64,000 nt of DNA from Minisyncoccota bacterium (GCA_046350775.1 JAXLZS010000001.1:351930-415929), one strand, 5' to 3'; positions 17,600-23,698 are shown, numbered from the stretch's first letter. The notes: generated by a model not told the origin, from the letters alone. Translations and numbers: made by a program.

Positions 17600-18748
17600 T
17601 TATTTATAATAAACACCTATTGCTTCAGATATATTTTTATATCCATCTTTATTTAGAAGATCTACTAATTCTTTATTTATAATCCCAATCTGGCTTGGAC
17701 CCTCATATATCATACCTGTTATCATCTGTACAAGACTTGCTCCTCTTTTTATTTTTTCATAAGCATCCTTTCCTTCAAAAACACCACCGCAACCGATAAT
17801 AATAAATCTATTTGTATCTTTATATTTTTTATAGACTTCACTTATCAAATTATTTGCAAGCTCTTCTGTCGGCTTTCCTGAAAAATTACCCCTTTGATCT
17901 TTTAATTTTTCTATTTCTTCCCTATTTAAATTTTTATTATTTCTATCTTTTACAAGATTTGAAAAAATAAATCCAGAAACAAATTTATAATTCTCAGCTA
18001 TCTCACATAAATCTAAAGTATCTTCGACAGATTTCTCGCTATGCATCTTTATAAAGACTGGCTTATCTATTTTTATTTCGCTTATCTTATCTAGTAGACT
18101 CTTAAATCCTTCTTTGCTATCAAATTTTATAAAATGCTCTGGTAGATGAATGAGATTTGGGCAAGATATATTAATCTCGAAATAGTCAAAATACTGTTCA
18201 TTGGTAGCCCTCTCAAAAGCTTGATAAAAATCCTCTCTCATACCATCTTCTGTTTCGTATTTTTTATTAGTAGCACCAATACTAATGCCGAGAGGAAAAT
18301 ATTTTTTTCTTTTATTTATTTTCTTTAAAACAAAATCTATACCATTACTTTTAAATCCTTTATTTACGAGCAGTGATTTGGATTTTGGAAGTCTGCCAAG
18401 CATGGGAAATGCATTCCCTTGATAAAAATTATTTGTCACCGTGCCAACAGTCTCAAATCCAAATCCAACTTGGGGCAAAATATTCATCAAATCAGCATCA
18501 TAGTCAAATCCCGCGGCGAGACCGATTGGATTTTTAAAGTCTATTCCCAATATATCTTGATTTAAAGATTGCGACTGAAAAGAAAATATTTTTTTGGTCA
18601 AAAATCTAGAAAATTTATATCTACCTAAAAAATTGCCCATCTTTAAAAATAAGACGTGGATATCATCCGCTGGAAATAAAAATAAAATTGGCTTAATTAT
18701 TTTTTTATAAATAAATCTTATTATTTTTCTCATACTATCTAATTTCAA
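17600..18748 (-). CDS. pyrD: dihydroorotate dehydrogenase (class 2, PyrD-like)
   Basis: NPIGLAAGFD, GFGFETVGTVT, ISCPN and IIGCGGV motifs match DHODH. The N-terminal extension is typical of membrane-associated class 2 enzymes. Confidence 0.8.
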   Translation of the reverse strand: MKLDSMRKIIRFIYKKIIKPILFLFPADDIHVLFLKMGNFLGRYKFSRFLTKKIFSFQSQSLNQDILGIDFKNPIGLAAGFDYDADLMNILPQVGFGFETVGTVTNNFYQGNAFPMLGRLPKSKSLLVNKGFKSNGIDFVLKKINKRKKYFPLGISIGATNKKYETEDGMREDFYQAFERATNEQYFDYFEINISCPNLIHLPEHFIKFDSKEGFKSLLDKISEIKIDKPVFIKMHSEKSVEDTLDLCEIAENYKFVSGFIFSNLVKDRNNKNLNREEIEKLKDQRGNFSGKPTEELANNLISEVYKKYKDTNRFIIIGCGGVFEGKDAYEKIKRGASLVQMITGMIYEGPSQIGIINKELVDLLNKDGYKNISEAIGVYYK

Positions 18749-21194
18749 ATCCTTTAGATTTTAGAGCTTCATAGACTCTCTCTGCTTCTTGATTCACCTC
18801 CTCGTCAGTGAGAGTTCTCTCTTTGTCTTGATAGATGAGTCTAAATCCAAAAGATTTCTTTTTAACTCCATCAATTTCTTTTTCAAATTTATCAAATAAT
18901 TTTAAAGATATACAAAGTGGAGAAATATTTTCTCTTATAGTATTTTCAATATCCGACTCAGAAATATCTTCCCCTACCCAACATGCGACATCGCGCACAA
19001 TAAATGGAGTCAGAGCAAAAGATTGATATTTTGTATCTTTTTTATCAATATTTTCTAGGGCTATATAATCGCTGCCCTGCTCTAAATCTTTTATGAGATT
19101 ATCAAAATCGATCTCAATACAATTTTCTTTTTGTGATGCGTTTTTTGTCTCTGTATATTTTATTTCTTGAATACTAAATTCTTTTTTAATTTCATTCAAA
19201 ATATTTTCTATTTCTTCTTTATAATTTTTATTTTTCTTTCCGTCATCGATAGCTATAGCTAGACTTCTCCACTCTATTTCTTTGCCATCAGCATCAACTG
19301 AAAAACAATTTCCAAATTCAAATACTCTGATCATATCAGTATCTATGAGGGGCATATTGAAAATATTTTTTTGTATTGCTTCTTCGACTCCTACAGAAAG
19401 ATTATTTCTTAAAAAGTTTTTATCTTGAGCGACAGATTTCAAGATCTCTATATCTCCTTTATTTCTGAGACTATAAGTATATATTTCACTAAATCCTTTT
19501 TTAAATAAAATATTTTTAATTTTATTTTCAAAATAAAGTCTTTTATTTGGAGCTCTTATCTTGTCTAATTTAGGTAAGACACTTTGTATATTATTAAGAC
19601 CAAAAACTCTGGCTACTTCCTCTATCAAATCTTCTTTGATTCTCAAATCCAATCTTTCTTCTGGAATGGTAACCACAAATCTCTCTTCTTCTAAATTTTC
19701 TAAGACTCTACCGTATCCCACAAACTCACCCCTAGCTAAAAATTCTTCAACAGACTCTATCTCTGTACCGTCTTTTAACTCGCTAGAAGAATGAATAACT
19801 TTATCCTCACCTAAAAACATAGCAAGATGATCTACACCATTTTCCACTCTTTCACCTTTTCTATATTCTTTTCCTTCAAAATAAATACCTGTACTTTTTA
19901 CTTTTCCTGTATTTATAAAAATAAGATCTCCAAATTTTAAATCTTCTTTAGACTTTATTCCTTTTGCCAAATCTTTTGTATAAAGATATTTATCAATAGA
20001 AATAGAAGGCATATAAATTCCTTCATATAAATATGAAATTAAAGATGAACAAGAAAATGCATTTGGAGCATCTTCACGCATAGAGCTTGGATTTTTATAA
20101 GCCTTACCAACTACTCCACTTATCTTATTTTCAATATTTTCTTTTGTAGAAATATATTTAAAATAAAAATTAAATCTTTTAAAAATATTTTCAACTTCTT
20201 CTTTGTTTATATTTATTCCAATTAATCTATTTATTTCATTTAAAGAAACAGAAACTTTATATTTCCAGCTATTTATTTTTTCTTTTGGCCAATTATCTAC
20301 TATCTCTCCAATTTCTATCTCAGTATTTTCATCACTCGCATACTCTTTTATAAGTTTCAAAGTTTCTATCATTCCGATTTCTACCAACTCATCAGCTATC
20401 TCATTTTCAAATCTTTTACTTGCGTCAGTTTTTAAATTATATTTTTGTGAAGTTTTACGAATCAGTGTCGGATTAAAATTAGCACTTTCTATAATAATAT
20501 TTTTTGTCTCATTTGAAATTCCAGAATACTTTCCACCTTTTATGCCAGCAAGACCTAAGACATTTTTACTGTCTGCGATGACTAAAGTTTTCCCATCTAA
20601 TTCTAAATCTTTATCATCAAGAGTTGTCATTCTTTCTCCATCTTTTGCAAATCTTGCTTCAAGACAAATATTATCTTTTGCTGATACCAGATTTGCGTCA
20701 TAAGCATGCATTGGTTTATTAAAACTAAATTGTACATAATTTGTAATATCTACAATATTATTTATACTTTTTTGACCAATAGCTTCAAGTCTGTATTTTA
20801 TAAATTCTGGAGAATCTTTTACTACTATGCTATTTACTTTGCAACCCATAAATCTCATACAAGATTTTGGATCAGAGATTTTTATAAAATCAGAATCAGA
20901 CTTTTTAAAAGAAAAAATATTTTTATAATCTACTGATTTTAATTTAAAATTAAATAGAGCAGCGACTTCTTTCGCCATATAGTAGTGTGACAGCGCATCA
21001 TGGGCTCTGTTTGGAAGAACATTTAAGTCATAAATAAAATCTTTTTTCTCAGATTCATTTTTCGCTAATTTATTTTCTATTTCAAAAAATTCTTCAACTT
21101 CAAAAGCGTTTGTAGAAATAACTTTTACAAAATCTTCCCCTTTTGGAATTTTCTCTTCAATATAATCTTGTATCCAGCTGTGTAAATATTTCAT
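18735..21194 (-). CDS. pheT: phenylalanyl-tRNA synthetase beta subunit. It lacks the EMAP-like tRNA-binding domain and carries an inserted NlpC/P60-like papain-fold domain.
   Basis: B1 N-terminus, then B3/4 (VLPNRAHDALSHYYMAKEVAAL), B5 (LIEEVARVFGLNNI) and the C-terminal FDX-ACB domain. An insert of about 150 aa has NlpC/P60 hallmarks (FSCSSLISYLY, GDLIFIN, VDHLAMFLGEDKVIHSS). Confidence 0.85.
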   Translation of the reverse strand: MKYLHSWIQDYIEEKIPKGEDFVKVISTNAFEVEEFFEIENKLAKNESEKKDFIYDLNVLPNRAHDALSHYYMAKEVAALFNFKLKSVDYKNIFSFKKSDSDFIKISDPKSCMRFMGCKVNSIVVKDSPEFIKYRLEAIGQKSINNIVDITNYVQFSFNKPMHAYDANLVSAKDNICLEARFAKDGERMTTLDDKDLELDGKTLVIADSKNVLGLAGIKGGKYSGISNETKNIIIESANFNPTLIRKTSQKYNLKTDASKRFENEIADELVEIGMIETLKLIKEYASDENTEIEIGEIVDNWPKEKINSWKYKVSVSLNEINRLIGININKEEVENIFKRFNFYFKYISTKENIENKISGVVGKAYKNPSSMREDAPNAFSCSSLISYLYEGIYMPSISIDKYLYTKDLAKGIKSKEDLKFGDLIFINTGKVKSTGIYFEGKEYRKGERVENGVDHLAMFLGEDKVIHSSSELKDGTEIESVEEFLARGEFVGYGRVLENLEEERFVVTIPEERLDLRIKEDLIEEVARVFGLNNIQSVLPKLDKIRAPNKRLYFENKIKNILFKKGFSEIYTYSLRNKGDIEILKSVAQDKNFLRNNLSVGVEEAIQKNIFNMPLIDTDMIRVFEFGNCFSVDADGKEIEWRSLAIAIDDGKKNKNYKEEIENILNEIKKEFSIQEIKYTETKNASQKENCIEIDFDNLIKDLEQGSDYIALENIDKKDTKYQSFALTPFIVRDVACWVGEDISESDIENTIRENISPLCISLKLFDKFEKEIDGVKKKSFGFRLIYQDKERTLTDEEVNQEAERVYEALKSKGFEIR

Positions 21195-21198
21195 AAAT

Positions 21199-22104
21199 TT
21201 ATTTTAAACTATTTTTTAAATTATCCAAATAACCTTTCTTCTTCATTTCTTCTAACAAAATCCAATCTGCAGTAAAAGGTAAATATTTTTCTTTATCTTC
21301 TTTTGTTAAATCTCTCCAAGGAACTATACTTCCATAACATTTTTTGCTTTTACAAAAACATTTTCCTTCAGGGTTTTGCCAATCAGAATTACAAAATAAA
21401 CTATATGACATTGTTAGTTCTTCACCTTTTTTAATATCTCTCATTGCTGTAACAAAAAATAAATCTTTTATATAACAATTTGGCTCACAACTATGATTAA
21501 ATTTTACAGATAAAGAATTAAAAGAATTTCTATAAAAATATTTTGAAAAAGGAATAGCGTGATCTTTAACTAAAGAATTAATTTGTGATTCTTTTTTTGC
21601 AAAATAAATTTGTCCATCTACATATGATAATATTTCTCCTTTCTTTATATCTTCTTTTGCAAAAATTCCGGAACCTTTAACTTTTGTAGATTTTAATTCT
21701 ATCTTATCTTCATATTTTCTATAAAGTGAGTCTGGGGTTTCTTTATATGTAAAATCTTTTATATCAAAATATTTTTTTATAAATTCAATTGTCTTTTCTG
21801 TATTAAAATCCTTACAACTATAAATATCAACTGTTAGAAAATTATATTTAGTCCAAACATAAATATCAGCCCCTGATTCTGCCCAGACAACTTGTCCTTC
21901 ATATCCTTCATGGATTGGTTTTGCATTCCCTGTTGCGGAAGAAATGAAAGGACCATTAATAGTTTTCATTTTTAAATTCTTTGCCAGATCTAAAAGAAAA
22001 TTATTGATTAATTTTTCTTCTCCTTTATTTTTTATTTTCAATTTATAAGAAGCTTCTACTATTAAACGCTTTCTAAAAATATCTTTTGCTAAATCGTAAT
22101 ACAT
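21199..22104 (-). CDS. fusion protein: N-terminal AdoMetDC (SpeH)-like domain plus C-terminal SET-domain methyltransferase
   Basis: The N-terminus aligns to bacterial S-adenosylmethionine decarboxylase proenzyme (EGYEGQVVWAESGADIYVWTKYNFLTVDIYSCKDF versus [32 protein letters not shown]). The C-terminus has SET motifs NHSCEPN and a GEELTMSY post-SET tyrosine. Confidence 0.6.
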   Translation of the reverse strand: MYYDLAKDIFRKRLIVEASYKLKIKNKGEEKLINNFLLDLAKNLKMKTINGPFISSATGNAKPIHEGYEGQVVWAESGADIYVWTKYNFLTVDIYSCKDFNTEKTIEFIKKYFDIKDFTYKETPDSLYRKYEDKIELKSTKVKGSGIFAKEDIKKGEILSYVDGQIYFAKKESQINSLVKDHAIPFSKYFYRNSFNSLSVKFNHSCEPNCYIKDLFFVTAMRDIKKGEELTMSYSLFCNSDWQNPEGKCFCKSKKCYGSIVPWRDLTKEDKEKYLPFTADWILLEEMKKKGYLDNLKNSLK

Positions 22105-22108
22105 AAAT

Positions 22109-22420
22109 TTATTTTGATTCCTTTAAAATCCATTCACTATAACTTTTATTTGCTTCGACTTCATTCATTTTTATAATGCAAGGAATTTCATAACTGTGAT
22201 TTTCTTCAATACATTTTTTAACTTTATTCCAATTCTCTTTTCTGGTTTTTAAATAGGTTGCAATTTCTTTTGTTGATAATATTTTATCTTTCCAAAAATA
22301 TTTGGATTCTATATTTATATAATTAGCACAAGCGATCAATTTTTTATCAAGCAAAATCTTGACTATTTTATCAGCTTCTTTTTTATTTTTAAATGTAGAA
22401 TAAATAATAATGAATTTCAT
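22109..22420 (-). CDS. cutA: CutA1 divalent-cation tolerance protein
   Basis: 103 aa with the CutA pattern LIACANYI...YFWKDKI...HSYEIPCII (compare HPYEVPEII). Confidence 0.7.
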   Translation of the reverse strand: MKFIIIYSTFKNKKEADKIVKILLDKKLIACANYINIESKYFWKDKILSTKEIATYLKTRKENWNKVKKCIEENHSYEIPCIIKMNEVEANKSYSEWILKESK

Positions 22421-22424
22421 AAAA

Positions 22425-22856
22425 TTAATTTAAATAATCTTGAATACTTTTAATTATAAAATCAGAAATATTTTCTGGTATTTGTACTGGTGGTACACCT
22501 TTTAATGAAGGAGAAATGTAGTGTCCTCCAAAATTCGGGTCTGAAAAAGTAAGACCTAAGATTTCTACTGGCTTAATATATCTTGGTCTAAAATGAAAAT
22601 GTACATGTGGTTTTTCATTATCTCTGTAAGCATTATTCATTAAACATGAATAGTTAAACATAGTTGCATTTAATTTTTCTTTATAAAAAGATTCTAATTT
22701 CTTTATTAATATAAAAAAATCTTTTTGTTCTTCTTCTGATATTTCTGGCAAAGAAGTTTTATCATCTTTTAAAGAAAGAATTAGTCTACCAAGATACATC
22801 TGATCTGGATTTAAAATTAGATCCCAGTATTTTGTTGAATAAAAATGTTGGTTCAT
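22425..22856 (-). CDS. HIT-family (histidine triad) hydrolase-like protein
   Basis: PHVHFHFRPRY matches the HxHxHxx histidine triad followed by PR, as in HIT nucleotide hydrolases. Confidence 0.5.
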   Translation of the reverse strand: MNQHFYSTKYWDLILNPDQMYLGRLILSLKDDKTSLPEISEEEQKDFFILIKKLESFYKEKLNATMFNYSCLMNNAYRDNEKPHVHFHFRPRYIKPVEILGLTFSDPNFGGHYISPSLKGVPPVQIPENISDFIIKSIQDYLN

Positions 22857-22861
22857 AAATT

Positions 22862-23698
22862 TTAAAATTGATTAACTACCCTTAGATCTCCATTGTATAA
22901 AAATCTAATATCGTCGAGGCCATACTTTAGCATTGCGATTCTATCTATTCCTCCACCAAAAGCAAATCCAGAATATTTTCTTGAGTCGATACCGCAATTT
23001 TCTAGCACCTTTGGATGAACCATGCCAGCCCCCATGATTTCTATATATCCTGTCTTTTTACAAATATTGCAGCCTGCCCCGTCACATTTAAAGCATCTCA
23101 TAGCCACTTCTAGTCCTGGCTCGACAAATGGGAAAAATGAGGAGCGAAATACTACATCGATTTCTTTTTCAAATAATTCTGAAAAGAATTTTTCAAGAGT
23201 AGCTTTTAGATTTGCAAGAGAAATATTTTCTCCGACAAGCAATCCTTCGACTTGATGAAATTGCGCCTCGTGAGTCGCATCAGTCGCCTCATTACGAAAA
23301 ACTTTTCCAGGACAAACTATAGCTATCGGGAAAATTTCTTTCTCAGTTTTTTCTGCATTTTTTAACTCTTGCATTTTTTGTGTCATATATCTGATCTGGA
23401 CACTAGAAGTGTGGGTACGAAGTACAGCTTTTCCATCTCTGTCATCCTCTTTCAATTTTAAGAAAAATGTATCTTGCATATCACGAGATGGATGATCTTT
23501 TGGCACATTGAGCGCGTCGAAATTGTACCACTCCCTCTCCAGCTCTCTACCATCCGCAATATCAAATCCCATACCAGTAAAAATCTTTGATATCTTATCA
23601 ATCAAAATAGTGATCGGATGAGCATGATTAGATTTTGTATTTTCTTCTCCATTCATAGACTTATTATCTGATTTAAATATAAGAGAATTATAGCACAA
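22862..23698 (-). CDS. pheS: phenylalanyl-tRNA synthetase alpha subunit (N-terminally short)
   Basis: Class II catalytic core: HPITILID, FRNEATDATHEAQFHQVEGL, GAGMVHP. It lacks the usual N-terminal coiled-coil. Confidence 0.9.
   Translation of the reverse strand: MCYNSLIFKSDNKSMNGEENTKSNHAHPITILIDKISKIFTGMGFDIADGRELEREWYNFDALNVPKDHPSRDMQDTFFLKLKEDDRDGKAVLRTHTSSVQIRYMTQKMQELKNAEKTEKEIFPIAIVCPGKVFRNEATDATHEAQFHQVEGLLVGENISLANLKATLEKFFSELFEKEIDVVFRSSFFPFVEPGLEVAMRCFKCDGAGCNICKKTGYIEIMGAGMVHPKVLENCGIDSRKYSGFAFGGGIDRIAMLKYGLDDIRFLYNGDLRVVNQF

What the first reader, a model, noticed from the sequence alone, without database searches (positions are those of the whole stretch)
18735..21194. PheT with an NlpC/P60-like papain-fold insertion and no tRNA-binding (EMAP) domain
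Between the B3/4 editing-type domain and the B5 domain there is an in-frame insert of about 150 aa carrying the three NlpC/P60 hallmarks in order: Cys in FSCSSLISYLY, the GDLIFIN strand, and His in VDHLAMFLGEDKVIHSS. NlpC/P60 domains are normally extracytoplasmic peptidoglycan amidases. Inside a cytoplasmic aaRS subunit such a domain would more plausibly act as a thiol hydrolase, a possible trans-editing or deacylase module. The canonical N-terminal OB-fold tRNA-binding domain is missing.
Basis: partly seen in the sequence, partly recalled or inferred. Interest (0 to 1): 0.55.

Follow-up and report, generated by a model that had tools for sequence, protein, structure and literature searches.

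The report
Peptidase domain embedded in PheRS beta subunit
The beta subunit of this ultra-small (Patescibacteria) bacterium's phenylalanyl-tRNA synthetase carries an apparently active cell-wall-type cysteine peptidase domain spliced into one of its own domains, and related bacteria that have lost this subunit keep just that spliced piece as a separate gene, so it probably has a function of its own that nobody has described.

Summary
ORF 18735-21194 (-) is an 819-aa PheT. A ~157-aa NlpC/P60 domain (residues 344-500) is inserted, but inside the B5 domain, not between B3/4 and B5. The B2/EMAP OB domain is deleted. Pfam, Foldseek and AlphaFold2 confirm a canonical NlpC/P60 fold.

The Cys382-His456-His468 triad is almost invariant across about 260 relatives. 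The architecture is restricted to Patescibacteria (148 clusters at 50% identity).

New findings:
- The B3/4 editing site is intact.
- Lineages with a single-chain, mitochondrial-like PheRS have lost PheT but keep B5N-NlpC/P60-B5C as a stand-alone ~210-aa gene, with the PheS-interface residues relaxed.
- The module is repeatedly linked to a cytoplasmic C39-like cysteine peptidase. That gene lies downstream of PheT in 26 loci, adjacent to stand-alone modules, or fused to the module inside cell-wall gene clusters.
- About 38% of the family keeps the canonical gamma-D-Glu-site residues. The window carries a co-varying Ser/Ser variant.

Best reading: an autonomous cytoplasmic thiol amidase riding on PheT, probably acting on peptidoglycan-type peptides. 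An editing or deacylase role is not supported but is not excluded. I found no description of this in the literature.

The parts
18735..21194 (-). pheT ORF, 819 aa: bacterial PheRS beta subunit with a B2 deletion and an NlpC/P60 insertion
   Evidence: The full-length AF2 model's best PDB matches are bacterial PheRS beta chains (E 2e-48). TIGR00472 scores 375 bits, below its 402.65 cutoff.
21045..21194 (-). B1 domain (residues 1-50). The junction where B2 (the EMAP/OB tRNA_bind domain) would be nested lies at residues ~40-51 (nt 21042-21077).
   Evidence: query 5-39 aligns to reference 5-38, and query 52 aligns to reference 161. There is no PF01588 hit. In all full-length relatives the module starts at residue 282-319, against ~400 in canonical PheT.
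20337..20861 (-). B3/4 editing domain (residues 112-286) with intact editing-site residues N152, H163, E236, T256 and A258
   Evidence: Pfam 180 bits. Residue mapping onto E. coli 3pco_B is. These residues are invariant or nearly invariant in 70 relatives.
20166..20282 (-). N-terminal half of B5 (residues 305-343)
   Evidence: It is retained in the stand-alone modules.
19695..20165 (-). Inserted NlpC/P60 (C40) cysteine peptidase domain (residues 344-500)
   Evidence: Pfam PF00877 above its gathering score. PDB sequence hits 7cfl and 4fdy. Foldseek results. AF2 pLDDT is mostly above 90.
20049..20051 (-). Codon of the catalytic Cys382 (motif FSCSS)
   Evidence: Cys is present in 261 of 263 family members.
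19827..19829 (-). Codon of the catalytic His456 (motif VDHLA)
   Evidence: His is present in 261 of 263.
19791..19793 (-). Codon of the third triad residue, His468 (motif VIHSS)
   Evidence: His is present in 256 of 263.
19590..19694 (-). C-terminal half of B5 (residues 501-535), including R514, D516, D522, E525, E526 and R529
   Evidence: R514, D516, E525, E526 and R529 are invariant and D522 is nearly invariant (113 of 120) in fused PheT, but all are relaxed in the stand-alone modules.
19137..19589 (-). B6/B7 catalytic-like module (residues 536-686)
18738..19010 (-). B8 FDX-ACB anticodon-binding domain (residues 729-819)
22862..23698 (-). pheS (at most 278 aa), the catalytic alpha subunit, at the head of the same tightly packed operon. 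It lacks the N-terminal coiled-coil.
   Evidence: the TIGR00468 match begins at model position 64. Intergenic gaps are 4-5 nt.

Best explanation
This is the genuine, functional PheRS beta subunit of a Paceibacteria-class (Patescibacteria/CPR) bacterium. Its B5 domain hosts a nested, catalytically competent, cytoplasmic NlpC/P60 cysteine amidase with a Cys382-His456-His468 triad.

B5 and NlpC/P60 together form a compact, self-sufficient module. Aminoacylation and B3/4 editing proceed as usual, and PheT mainly serves as a constitutively expressed carrier.

The module most likely hydrolyses an amide bond in a small soluble substrate of the gamma-D-glutamyl (peptidoglycan stem-peptide) type. This resembles YkfC-type recycling peptidases, with the B5 halves playing the accessory-domain role that SH3b plays in YkfC. 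In most related lineages it works together with a small cytoplasmic C39-like cysteine peptidase.

Shown here: the anatomy, the fold, triad conservation, the intact editing site, survival of the module without PheT, and the C39 linkage.

Inferred: catalytic activity, autonomy from PheRS, and the substrate class.
For: (1) Fold and triad.

(2) Intact editing site.

(3) Autonomy. Stand-alone B5N-NlpC/P60-B5C proteins of ~204-233 aa retain the triad. They have relaxed R514, D516, E525, E526 and R529, which are invariant in fused PheT. From my own knowledge (not tested here), D516, D522, E525 and E526 correspond to the B5 Mg2+ site that is shared with the alpha subunit. In 12 loci the stand-alone gene sits next to a single-chain PheRS (class II core plus FDX-ACB) and no PheT pieces are present. 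No GTDB assembly appears twice among the 51 loci, which fits one module copy per genome. In the NJ tree the stand-alone and C39-fused forms nest among the fused ones.

(4) C39 partner. The gene lies downstream of PheT in 26 of 43 fused GTDB loci, often within 50 nt or overlapping. In 22 cases a C39-like hit and a fused PheT list the same longest-contig length, which suggests a shared contig. It is adjacent to stand-alone modules and fused to the module in P0167, P0168 and L051. It has its own invariant Gln-Cys-His set and no signal peptide.

(5) Peptidoglycan link. The module+C39 fusion lies in the string S11 DD-carboxypeptidase - GT4 - CAP - module, next to FtsW/MurG or an M23 peptidase, in two divergent genomes. 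98 of 263 family members keep the canonical residue set: YkfC Tyr226, Asp237, Cys238, Ser239, Arg255, Ser257, His291 and His303. In the window, Y366, S383 and S399 are kept (PMC2954226).

(6) Precedent. Cytosolic Cys-His-His NlpC/P60 enzymes recycle free stem peptides in Bacillus and Chlamydia (PMC2954226, PMC9928106).

(7) The module is net acidic, which is unlike an RNA-binding appendage.
Against: - There are no biochemical data, and the substrate is inferred only from residue conservation and gene context.
- The window's own subclade has the derived Ser381/Ser397 pair instead of the canonical Asp/Arg pair, and Asn368 in place of the Trp/Leu position. Its S1 pocket may therefore bind something else.
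- The YkfC-specific Asp256 is Ile398 here, and there is no SH3b domain, so this is not a YkfC-subfamily member.
- The window and its closest relatives (L006-L015, L048, L061) have no C39-like gene nearby.
- The cell-wall context is seen only for the rare module+C39 fusion (two informative loci) and could simply be inherited synteny.
- The persistent placement in or beside PheRS genes across a very large clade is what a translation-linked function would also predict.
Confidence: 0.45

Rival explanations
1. Translation-coupled thiol enzyme. The NlpC/P60 Cys attacks an aminoacyl ester (mis-acylated or cognate aa-tRNAPhe, or Phe-AMP). It then acts either as an extra cis/trans-editing deacylase or as an aminoacyl-transferase that passes Phe through a thioester to an acceptor.
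For: - The domain is embedded in an aaRS subunit across 148 clusters at 50% identity.
- Once excised, it stays divergently adjacent (0-38 nt) to the single-chain PheRS, which lacks any editing domain.
- B5's C-terminal half borders the alpha subunit (my own knowledge of PheRS structure, not tested here).
- In two genomes a cyclodipeptide synthase, which is an aa-tRNA-using enzyme, lies between PheT and the C39-like gene.
- NlpC/P60-superfamily LRAT enzymes do work through acyl-thioester intermediates (established knowledge; PMC3142127 covers the permuted families).
Against: - The B3/4 editing site is fully conserved, so there is no lost function to replace.
- Stand-alone modules lose the residues that face the alpha subunit.
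- Module+C39 fusions sit in cell-wall clusters with no PheRS within 6-7 kb.
- L059 has GT2, not PheRS, upstream.
- The module is acidic.
- The insert shows no similarity to any known editing fold.
- Adjacency to the single-chain PheRS is confined to one clade and may be inherited synteny.
Confidence: 0.15
2. Protein- or peptide-processing protease pair. NlpC/P60 and the C39-like enzyme together cleave a ribosomal peptide or protein substrate, for example by removing a leader peptide or a conjugate, and this has nothing to do with peptidoglycan.
For: The partner belongs to the C39-like, C70 and BtrH-like papain families, whose characterised members cut leader peptides or proteins, or transfer acyl groups. 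Both partners are cytoplasmic and both have intact catalytic residues. The genes that sit between PheT and the C39-like gene vary and include a CDPS.
Against: There is no ABC-transporter or precursor-peptide gene in the conserved neighbourhood. NlpC/P60 domains with the Tyr/Asp/Ser/Arg/Ser set are characteristically gamma-D-Glu amidases (PMC2954226), and 38% of the family keeps that set. The window's clade lacks the C39 partner nearby.
Confidence: 0.12
3. Non-catalytic structural or tRNA-binding appendage that compensates for the loss of B2 and of the PheS coiled-coil.
For: B2 is absent and PheS lacks its N-terminal coiled-coil, so some compensation for lost tRNA-binding surface is conceivable.
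Against: The Cys/His/His triad and many surrounding polar residues are nearly invariant in 263 sequences. The module has a net negative charge. It is retained as a separate gene where PheT no longer exists.
Confidence: 0.03
4. Artefact: a chimeric ORF produced by misassembly or frameshift that joins a peptidase gene to pheT.
For: None.
Against: The same in-frame architecture, with the same junctions inside B5, appears in more than 200 independent assemblies from many samples and sources. AF2 folds the whole chain confidently.
Confidence: 0

Closest known systems
Bacterial PheRS beta subunit (PheT; e.g. S. haemolyticus 2RHS, E. coli 3PCO, T. thermophilus 1PYS/2IY5)
   Same: The B1, B3/4 (with editing residues), B5, B6/7 CLM and B8 FDX-ACB domains are in the canonical order. 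It is co-operonic with pheS. The best sequence and fold matches are PheT chains.
   Different: There is no B2/EMAP OB domain. A 157-aa catalytic NlpC/P60 domain is nested in a B5 loop that is 3 residues long in canonical PheT. The protein scores below the NCBIfam pheT_bact cutoff (375 against 402.65). The partner PheS lacks its coiled-coil.
YkfC / dipeptidyl-peptidase VI: cytosolic gamma-D-Glu-L-diamino-acid endopeptidases of peptidoglycan recycling (B. cereus 3H41; C. trachomatis CT127)
   Same: Both are cytoplasmic, have no signal peptide, have a canonical (non-permuted) NlpC/P60 fold with a Cys-His-His triad, and have an accessory domain packed against the catalytic domain. The Tyr226, Ser239 and Ser257 equivalents are conserved (Y366, S383, S399). 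Both occur in reduced-genome bacteria (PMC2954226, PMC9928106).
   Different: There is no SH3b domain; B5 halves flank the catalytic domain instead. YkfC-defining Asp256 is Ile398. In the window, Asp237 and Arg255 are Ser381 and Ser397. Sequence identity is only ~17-23%. A ~16-20-residue conserved hairpin (437-452) precedes the His strand. The domain is embedded in an aaRS.
Secreted NlpC/P60 DL-endopeptidases (C. difficile Acd24020 7CFL, E. coli MepS, B. subtilis CwlO/LytE)
   Same: These are the best structural matches (TM 0.7-0.85 normalised to the target, rmsd 2.4-3.2 A). Motif order is the same: xDCSG-like, GDLxF, xHVxxY, xxH.
   Different: Those enzymes are exported and act on the sacculus. 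This domain is inside a cytoplasmic protein, so it cannot reach the wall.
aaRS editing and trans-editing modules (PheRS B3/4, CtdA, AlaX, YbaK/ProX, DTD)
   Same: Like these, it would be a hydrolytic domain attached to, or encoded next to, an aaRS.
   Different: The fold is unrelated: papain-like against the B3/4, YbaK or DTD folds. The insert gives no profile or fold match to any of them. The resident B3/4 site is intact.
Mitochondrial-type single-chain PheRS (human FARS2 3CMQ; NCBIfam pheS_mito / SrmL-like)
   Same: The relatives that carry the stand-alone module encode a 380-395-aa protein with a class II Phe core plus FDX-ACB in one chain. It scores 240 bits to pheS_mito and 248 bits to SrmL, against 163 bits to bacterial pheS.
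   Different: It is found in free Patescibacteria genomes and scores below both curated cutoffs. The window itself has the two-subunit enzyme.

Membership tests
Bacterial PheT (PheRS beta subunit) | B3/4 domain with editing-site residues (E. coli N254, H265, E334, T354, A356) | tested here: met
   Pfam B3_4 180 bits. The equivalents N152, H163, E236, T256 and A258 are present and conserved.
Bacterial PheT (PheRS beta subunit) | B5 domain, B6/7 catalytic-like module and C-terminal FDX-ACB (B8) | tested here: met
   PF03484 51.9 bits (split in two), PF17759 36.6 bits, PF03147 73.6 bits. The fold matches PheT chains.
Bacterial PheT (PheRS beta subunit) | B2 EMAP-like OB-fold (tRNA_bind, PF01588) | tested here: not met
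   No Pfam hit. About 110 residues are missing between query 39 and 52 relative to reference 38 and 161.
Bacterial PheT (PheRS beta subunit) | NCBIfam equivalog TIGR00472 score above its cutoff | tested here: not met
   375.1 bits against a cutoff of 402.65. The shortfall is explained by the B2 deletion and the B5 interruption. NCBI consequently names some orthologs 'C40 family peptidase' or 'beta subunit-related protein'.
Bacterial PheT (PheRS beta subunit) | Encoded with a two-subunit-type pheS | tested here: met
   PheS at 22862-23698 lies in the same tightly spaced operon. A two-subunit-type PheS is found upstream in most fused relatives; the exceptions are mostly loci cut at a contig end, plus L016, L031 and L037.
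NlpC/P60 (Pfam PF00877, MEROPS C40) | Profile match above the gathering score | tested here: met
   33.8 bits against 23. The match is precomputed in nearly all of the 120 closest relatives.
NlpC/P60 (Pfam PF00877, MEROPS C40) | Papain-like alpha+beta fold with canonical (non-permuted) topology, the Cys helix coming before the His strands | tested here: met
   Foldseek: the top 39 PDB hits are all NlpC/P60. TM 0.85 and 2.4 A to 7cfl_B. The order is Cys382, then His456, then His468.
NlpC/P60 (Pfam PF00877, MEROPS C40) | Catalytic Cys-His-polar triad conserved | tested here: met
   Cys 261/263, His 261/263 and His 256/263. All three are invariant in the 161-sequence alignment apart from one gapped stand-alone row at the two His positions.
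NlpC/P60 (Pfam PF00877, MEROPS C40) | Highly conserved Asp (before the Cys) and Arg hydrogen-bond pair (YkfC Asp237/Arg255) | tested here: not met
   The window has Ser381/Ser397. Across the family S/S occurs 157 times, D/R 98 times and mixed states 8 times, so the two positions co-vary tightly (feature taken from PMC2954226).
NlpC/P60 (Pfam PF00877, MEROPS C40) | Hydrolytic activity on a gamma-D-Glu-diamino-acid (or other) amide bond | not testable with these tools
   This needs an enzyme assay.
YkfC subfamily (recycling peptidases that require a free N-terminal L-Ala) | Asp256 equivalent that neutralises the L-Ala amine, plus an SH3b1 domain with Tyr118 | tested here: not met
   The Asp256 position is Ile398 (I/L/V/M family-wide). 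There is no SH3b domain.
aaRS editing / trans-editing domains | Homology of the insert to the B3/4, AlaX, YbaK/ProX or DTD folds | tested here: not met
   The insert gives no such hit in Pfam, NCBIfam, PDB sequence or Foldseek searches.
LRAT / YaeF permuted NlpC/P60 acyltransferases | Circularly permuted topology, with the catalytic Cys C-terminal to the His | tested here: not met
   Cys382 precedes His456. There is only a marginal NF008552 hit (E 0.075).

The most novel reading that the evidence does not exclude
The embedded NlpC/P60 Cys captures phenylalanine, or a mis-activated amino acid, from the aminoacyl-tRNA or aminoacyl-adenylate made by the same enzyme, forming a thioester. It then either hydrolyses it (a new, papain-fold editing activity) or transfers it to an acceptor such as a peptidoglycan stem peptide. 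That would make this a self-contained aaRS/aminoacyl-transferase. The stand-alone module would be its trans-acting form beside single-chain PheRS, and the C39-like protein would be a downstream processing partner.
Probability: 0.12. Interest if true: 0.9.

Novelty: new variant of a known kind. Interest (0 to 1): 0.62.

Why it matters
(1) An essential translation enzyme that carries a second, apparently active catalytic centre of a cell-wall peptidase type is unusual among aminoacyl-tRNA synthetases. I found no description of it in four targeted full-text searches.

(2) The natural 'deletion experiment' argues that the insert is under selection for its own function. Lineages that swapped to a single-chain PheRS discarded all of PheT except this module. 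This gives a clean handle for finding that function: a stand-alone 210-aa protein that should be easy to express.

(3) The recurrent NlpC/P60-C39 pairing defines a candidate two-enzyme cytoplasmic pathway. It is specific to Patescibacteria, organisms whose dependence on scavenged building blocks is a central open problem.

(4) There is a practical consequence. These PheT proteins fall below the NCBIfam pheT cutoff and are sometimes named 'C40 family peptidase'. Automated reconstructions can therefore wrongly score pheT as missing and mis-count cell-wall hydrolases in CPR genomes.

Tried and rejected
- Decayed editing site compensated by the insert: rejected, because all mapped editing residues are conserved.
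- RNA-binding substitute for B2: rejected, because the triad is invariant and the module is acidic.
- Stand-alone modules as split-gene or contig-end artefacts: rejected for the main group, which lies on long contigs with complete flanking genes and no PheT fragments. Several 480-540-aa and 286-aa family members are probably truncated gene calls, and I did not interpret them.
- P0170 and P0299 (high scores) are unrelated proteins with multiple NlpC/P60 repeats.
- PDB sequence search with the C39-like partner gave nothing significant. NCBIfam gave only a weak PA2778-family hit.
- The AFDB fold library was unavailable.
- Model coordinates are not exposed, so I could not measure distances from Cys382 to the editing site, the synthetic site or the tRNA.
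- The Mtb PheRS-tRNA paper has no B5-specific text.
- The Pfam count on the full 70-sequence alignment exceeded the size limit. I inferred B2 absence family-wide from module start positions instead.
- Subtype (D/R or S/S) against C39 presence could not be assessed in the GTDB loci, because the scan patterns were themselves S/S-specific.
- Literature searches found no report of a PheT-NlpC/P60 fusion or of CDPS in CPR.

Full report
**Observation**

The ORF at 18735-21194 (minus strand) encodes 819 aa. Pfam finds B3_4 (112-286; 180 bits), B5 in two stretches, NLPC_P60 (377-470; 33.8 bits against a gathering score of 23), the catalytic-like module (536-686) and FDX-ACB (729-819). It finds no tRNA_bind domain. 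NCBIfam's pheT_bact model matches at 375 bits, just under its 402.65 cutoff.

Alignment to solved PheT chains fixes the anatomy:
- Query residues 5-39 align to B1 residues 5-38 of S. haemolyticus PheT, and query 52 resumes at reference 161. The roughly 110-residue B2/EMAP OB domain is therefore deleted.
- Query 343 aligns to reference 442 and query 501 to reference 446. So 157 residues (344-500) replace a 3-residue loop.
- Both flanks belong to B5.

**Is it really NlpC/P60?**

- The insert alone hits two solved NlpC/P60 proteins by sequence. The motifs are in register: FDCSG against FSCSS, PRVS against PSIS, SHVGIY against DHLAMF, and MIHAS against VIHSS.
- An AlphaFold2 model of residues 300-536 is confident (pLDDT 85.9, pTM 0.83). 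Its 39 best Foldseek matches in the PDB are all NlpC/P60 DL-endopeptidases: Acd24020, MepS, the cyanobacterial YkfC-like enzymes, CwlO and LytE.
- The full-length model (pLDDT 88.3) matches bacterial PheRS beta chains globally (E 2e-48). Separately, it matches Acd24020 at TM 0.85 and 2.4 A.
- Topology is canonical: Cys382, then His456, then His468.

**Conservation and distribution**

- The 120 closest PheT relatives (45-97% identity) are Patescibacteria MAG proteins labelled Pacebacteria, Paceibacterota, Nomurabacteria and similar. They have the same length and almost all carry PF00877.
- In an alignment of 120 fused and 41 stand-alone sequences, Cys382, His456 and His468 are invariant, apart from one stand-alone row that has a gap at the two His positions. 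About 20 further residues around them are also invariant or nearly so.
- An exhaustive profile search of 1.84 billion representative proteins finds 148 clusters at E <= 1e-30. Most are 770-830-aa PheT with the module starting at residue 282-319, so B2 is absent family-wide.
- A scan of one genome per GTDB species returned 51 loci, all Patescibacteria, and no assembly appears twice.
- Canonical PheT from E. coli, Thermus, Staphylococcus, Pseudomonas and Mycobacterium has no insert here.
- The feature is therefore lineage-specific and old.

**The editing hypothesis**

Mapping onto E. coli PheT gives window N152, H163, E236, T256 and A258 for Ec N254, H265, E334, T354 and A356. That these are the editing-site residues is my own knowledge of the PheRS literature. 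All five are invariant or nearly invariant in 70 relatives. The resident editing site is intact, so the insert is not replacing a decayed one. The insert shows no similarity to any known editing fold.

**A natural deletion experiment**

- Searching with the insert alone retrieved proteins of ~200-230 aa that consist of exactly B5 N-half, NlpC/P60 and B5 C-half.
- In 12 loci this gene lies divergently adjacent, 0-38 nt away, to a 380-395-aa protein with the class II Phe core and FDX-ACB in one chain.
- That protein scores better to pheS_mito (240 bits) and the SrmL model (248 bits) than to bacterial pheS (163 bits). It is only ~30% identical to the window's PheS.
- The same GT2 and GyrB neighbours occur there as in the window.
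- No B1, B3/4 or CLM fragments are nearby.
- In the stand-alone proteins the catalytic residues stay invariant. R514, D516, E525, E526 and R529 are invariant in fused PheT but become variable. From my own knowledge, D516, D522, E525 and E526 correspond to the B5 Mg2+ site shared with the alpha subunit.
- A rough midpoint-rooted NJ tree places the main stand-alone group as one clade, sister to a C39-fused group, nested among the fused modules.
- The parsimonious reading is that lineages which switched to a single-chain PheRS lost all of PheT except this module. The module therefore has a selected function that does not need the rest of PheT.

**A second thiol enzyme as partner**

- Family members of ~395 aa carry the module followed by a Peptidase_C39_2 domain (P0167, P0168, L051).
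- A homologous, separate ~165-190-aa gene follows stand-alone modules in L059 and next to P0173.
- It also lies downstream of the NlpC/P60-bearing PheT in 26 of 43 fused GTDB loci. The gap is 50 nt or less, or the genes overlap, in about half of these. In the others a variable intervening gene is present.
- In 22 cases a C39-like hit and a fused PheT list the same longest-contig length, which suggests they share a contig.
- The partner has no signal peptide and has invariant Gln10, Cys24 and His114.
- Its family is small (222 hits) and confined to the same lineages.
- The window, its close relatives (L006-L015, L048) and L061 lack it nearby. There PheT is followed by DHODH and GyrB.

**Hints about the substrate**

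- The module+C39 fusion sits in the string S11 DD-carboxypeptidase - GT4 - CAP - module. In L058 this string follows FtsW-MurG. In L051 it lies near DUF218 and an M23 peptidase. The two genomes are divergent.
- The YkfC structure paper defines gamma-D-Glu recognition by Tyr226, Trp228, Asp237, Ser239 and Ser257. It also describes the conserved Asp237/Arg255 network and the YkfC-specific Asp256 (PMC2954226).
- Across 263 module sequences, 98 have Asp381/Arg397 with a canonical Y-H-L-G motif, 157 have Ser381/Ser397 with YKNPSSMR, and only 8 are mixed.
- So a large minority keeps the full peptidoglycan-amidase residue set. The window carries a co-varying derived pocket that still retains Y366, S383 and S399.
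- The Asp256 equivalent is Ile, and there is no SH3b domain, so this is not a YkfC-subfamily member.
- Cytosolic Cys-His-His NlpC/P60 enzymes that recycle free stem peptides are established in Bacillus and in the reduced-genome Chlamydia (PMC2954226, PMC9928106).
- The module is net acidic: -3 for the window insert and a mean of -5 for fused modules. This argues against an RNA-binding role.

**Mechanism proposed**

PheRS works normally, as a minimalist alpha2-beta2 enzyme without B2 and without the PheS coiled-coil. Nested in B5 is an autonomous cytoplasmic cysteine amidase. It most likely acts on a small gamma-glutamyl-type peptide derived from, or destined for, peptidoglycan. In most lineages it acts together with the C39-like enzyme. 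The B5 halves serve as scaffold or specificity element, as SH3b does in YkfC.

- Confidence is about 0.95 for the anatomy, about 0.7 for autonomy and about 0.4 for the substrate class, or 0.45 overall.
- The main rival (0.15) is a PheRS-coupled aminoacyl-ester hydrolase or transferase. The persistent genomic association with PheRS keeps it alive. So does a cyclodipeptide synthase gene lying between PheT and the C39-like gene in L017 (with a near-identical copy in L019), which may be incidental.

**Novelty**

Both domains are known. What differs is their nesting inside an aaRS, the survival of the B5-NlpC/P60 module as a free gene, and its C39 partner. Four targeted full-text searches found no description of these. 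Databases do hold the sequences, sometimes misnamed 'C40 family peptidase'. I rate this a new variant of a known kind, with moderately high interest.

Noticed in passing
L001:4821-5963 (-), L004:4813-6000 (-), and the equivalent genes in L046, L049, L050, L052-L055: Some Patescibacteria (labelled Zambryskibacteria, among others) encode a single-chain PheRS of 380-395 aa with the class II Phe core plus FDX-ACB. It scores best to pheS_mito (240 bits) and to 'PheS-related mystery ligase SrmL' (248 bits), below both cutoffs, and is only ~30% identical to the window's PheS. I know of no description of a bacterial mitochondrial-like monomeric PheRS.
   Followed up: partly
L051:5977-7179; L058:7001-8194; L057:370-1548: A third architecture: B5N-NlpC/P60-B5C fused to a C-terminal Peptidase_C39_2 domain (~395 aa, no signal peptide). 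In L051 and L058 it follows S11 DD-carboxypeptidase, GT4 and a CAP-domain gene, beside FtsW/MurG or an M23 peptidase, with no PheRS nearby.
   Followed up: partly
L017:7504-8193 and L019:7480-8169: In L017 the 229-aa gene between the NlpC/P60-bearing PheT and the C39-like gene matches cyclodipeptide synthase (PF16715, 33.6 bits against a cutoff of 27) and has a GISLGN catalytic-Ser-like motif. L019 carries a near-identical copy that was not scanned itself. CDPSs use aminoacyl-tRNAs. No literature on CDPS in CPR turned up.
   Followed up: partly
window 22862-23698 (-): PheS is at most 278 aa and begins essentially at the class II core (the TIGR00468 match starts at model position 64). It therefore lacks the N-terminal coiled-coil that contacts tRNA in canonical bacterial PheRS. 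With the B2 loss, this is a strongly minimised PheRS.
   Followed up: partly
window 21199-22104 (-): A 301-aa protein combines an S-adenosylmethionine decarboxylase-like domain (PF02675) with a SET domain (PF00856), encoded between pheS and pheT. A stand-alone protein with SET-like motifs, judged by eye and not scanned, sits between PheT and the C39-like gene in L039 (6458-6955).
   Followed up: no
window 17600-23698 (-): A very tight operon: pheS, a HIT/GalT-like gene (22425-22856), cutA (22109-22420), the AdoMetDC-SET gene, pheT and DHODH. The spacers are 4-5 nt and pheT and DHODH overlap by 14 nt. The HIT-like protein next to an aaRS is notable because, from my own knowledge, Hint-type HIT enzymes hydrolyse aminoacyl-adenylates.
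   Followed up: no
Module positions 381 and 397 (window nt 20052-20054 and 20004-20006): Two active-site subtypes co-vary almost perfectly across 263 sequences: Asp/Arg (canonical, 98) against Ser/Ser (157), with 8 mixed. Each subtype has its own upstream motif (YHLGxSVRYDAP or YKNPSSMRxDAP). In the module tree some D/R sequences group together even though their PheT proteins are distantly related, which hints at convergence or module exchange.
   Followed up: partly
P0010, P0085, P0102, P0019, P0034, P0043: NCBI annotation names several of these essential PheT orthologs 'C40 family peptidase' or 'phenylalanine--tRNA ligase beta subunit-related protein'. This is consistent with the TIGR00472 score falling below its cutoff, and it risks pheT being scored as absent in CPR genome reconstructions.
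   Followed up: partly
P0190, P0248, P0264, P0210, P0175 (480-540 aa): These family members start at the module and continue through CLM and FDX-ACB, with no B1 or B3/4. They may be truncated gene calls, or real PheT variants that lack the editing domain. I did not resolve which.
   Followed up: no
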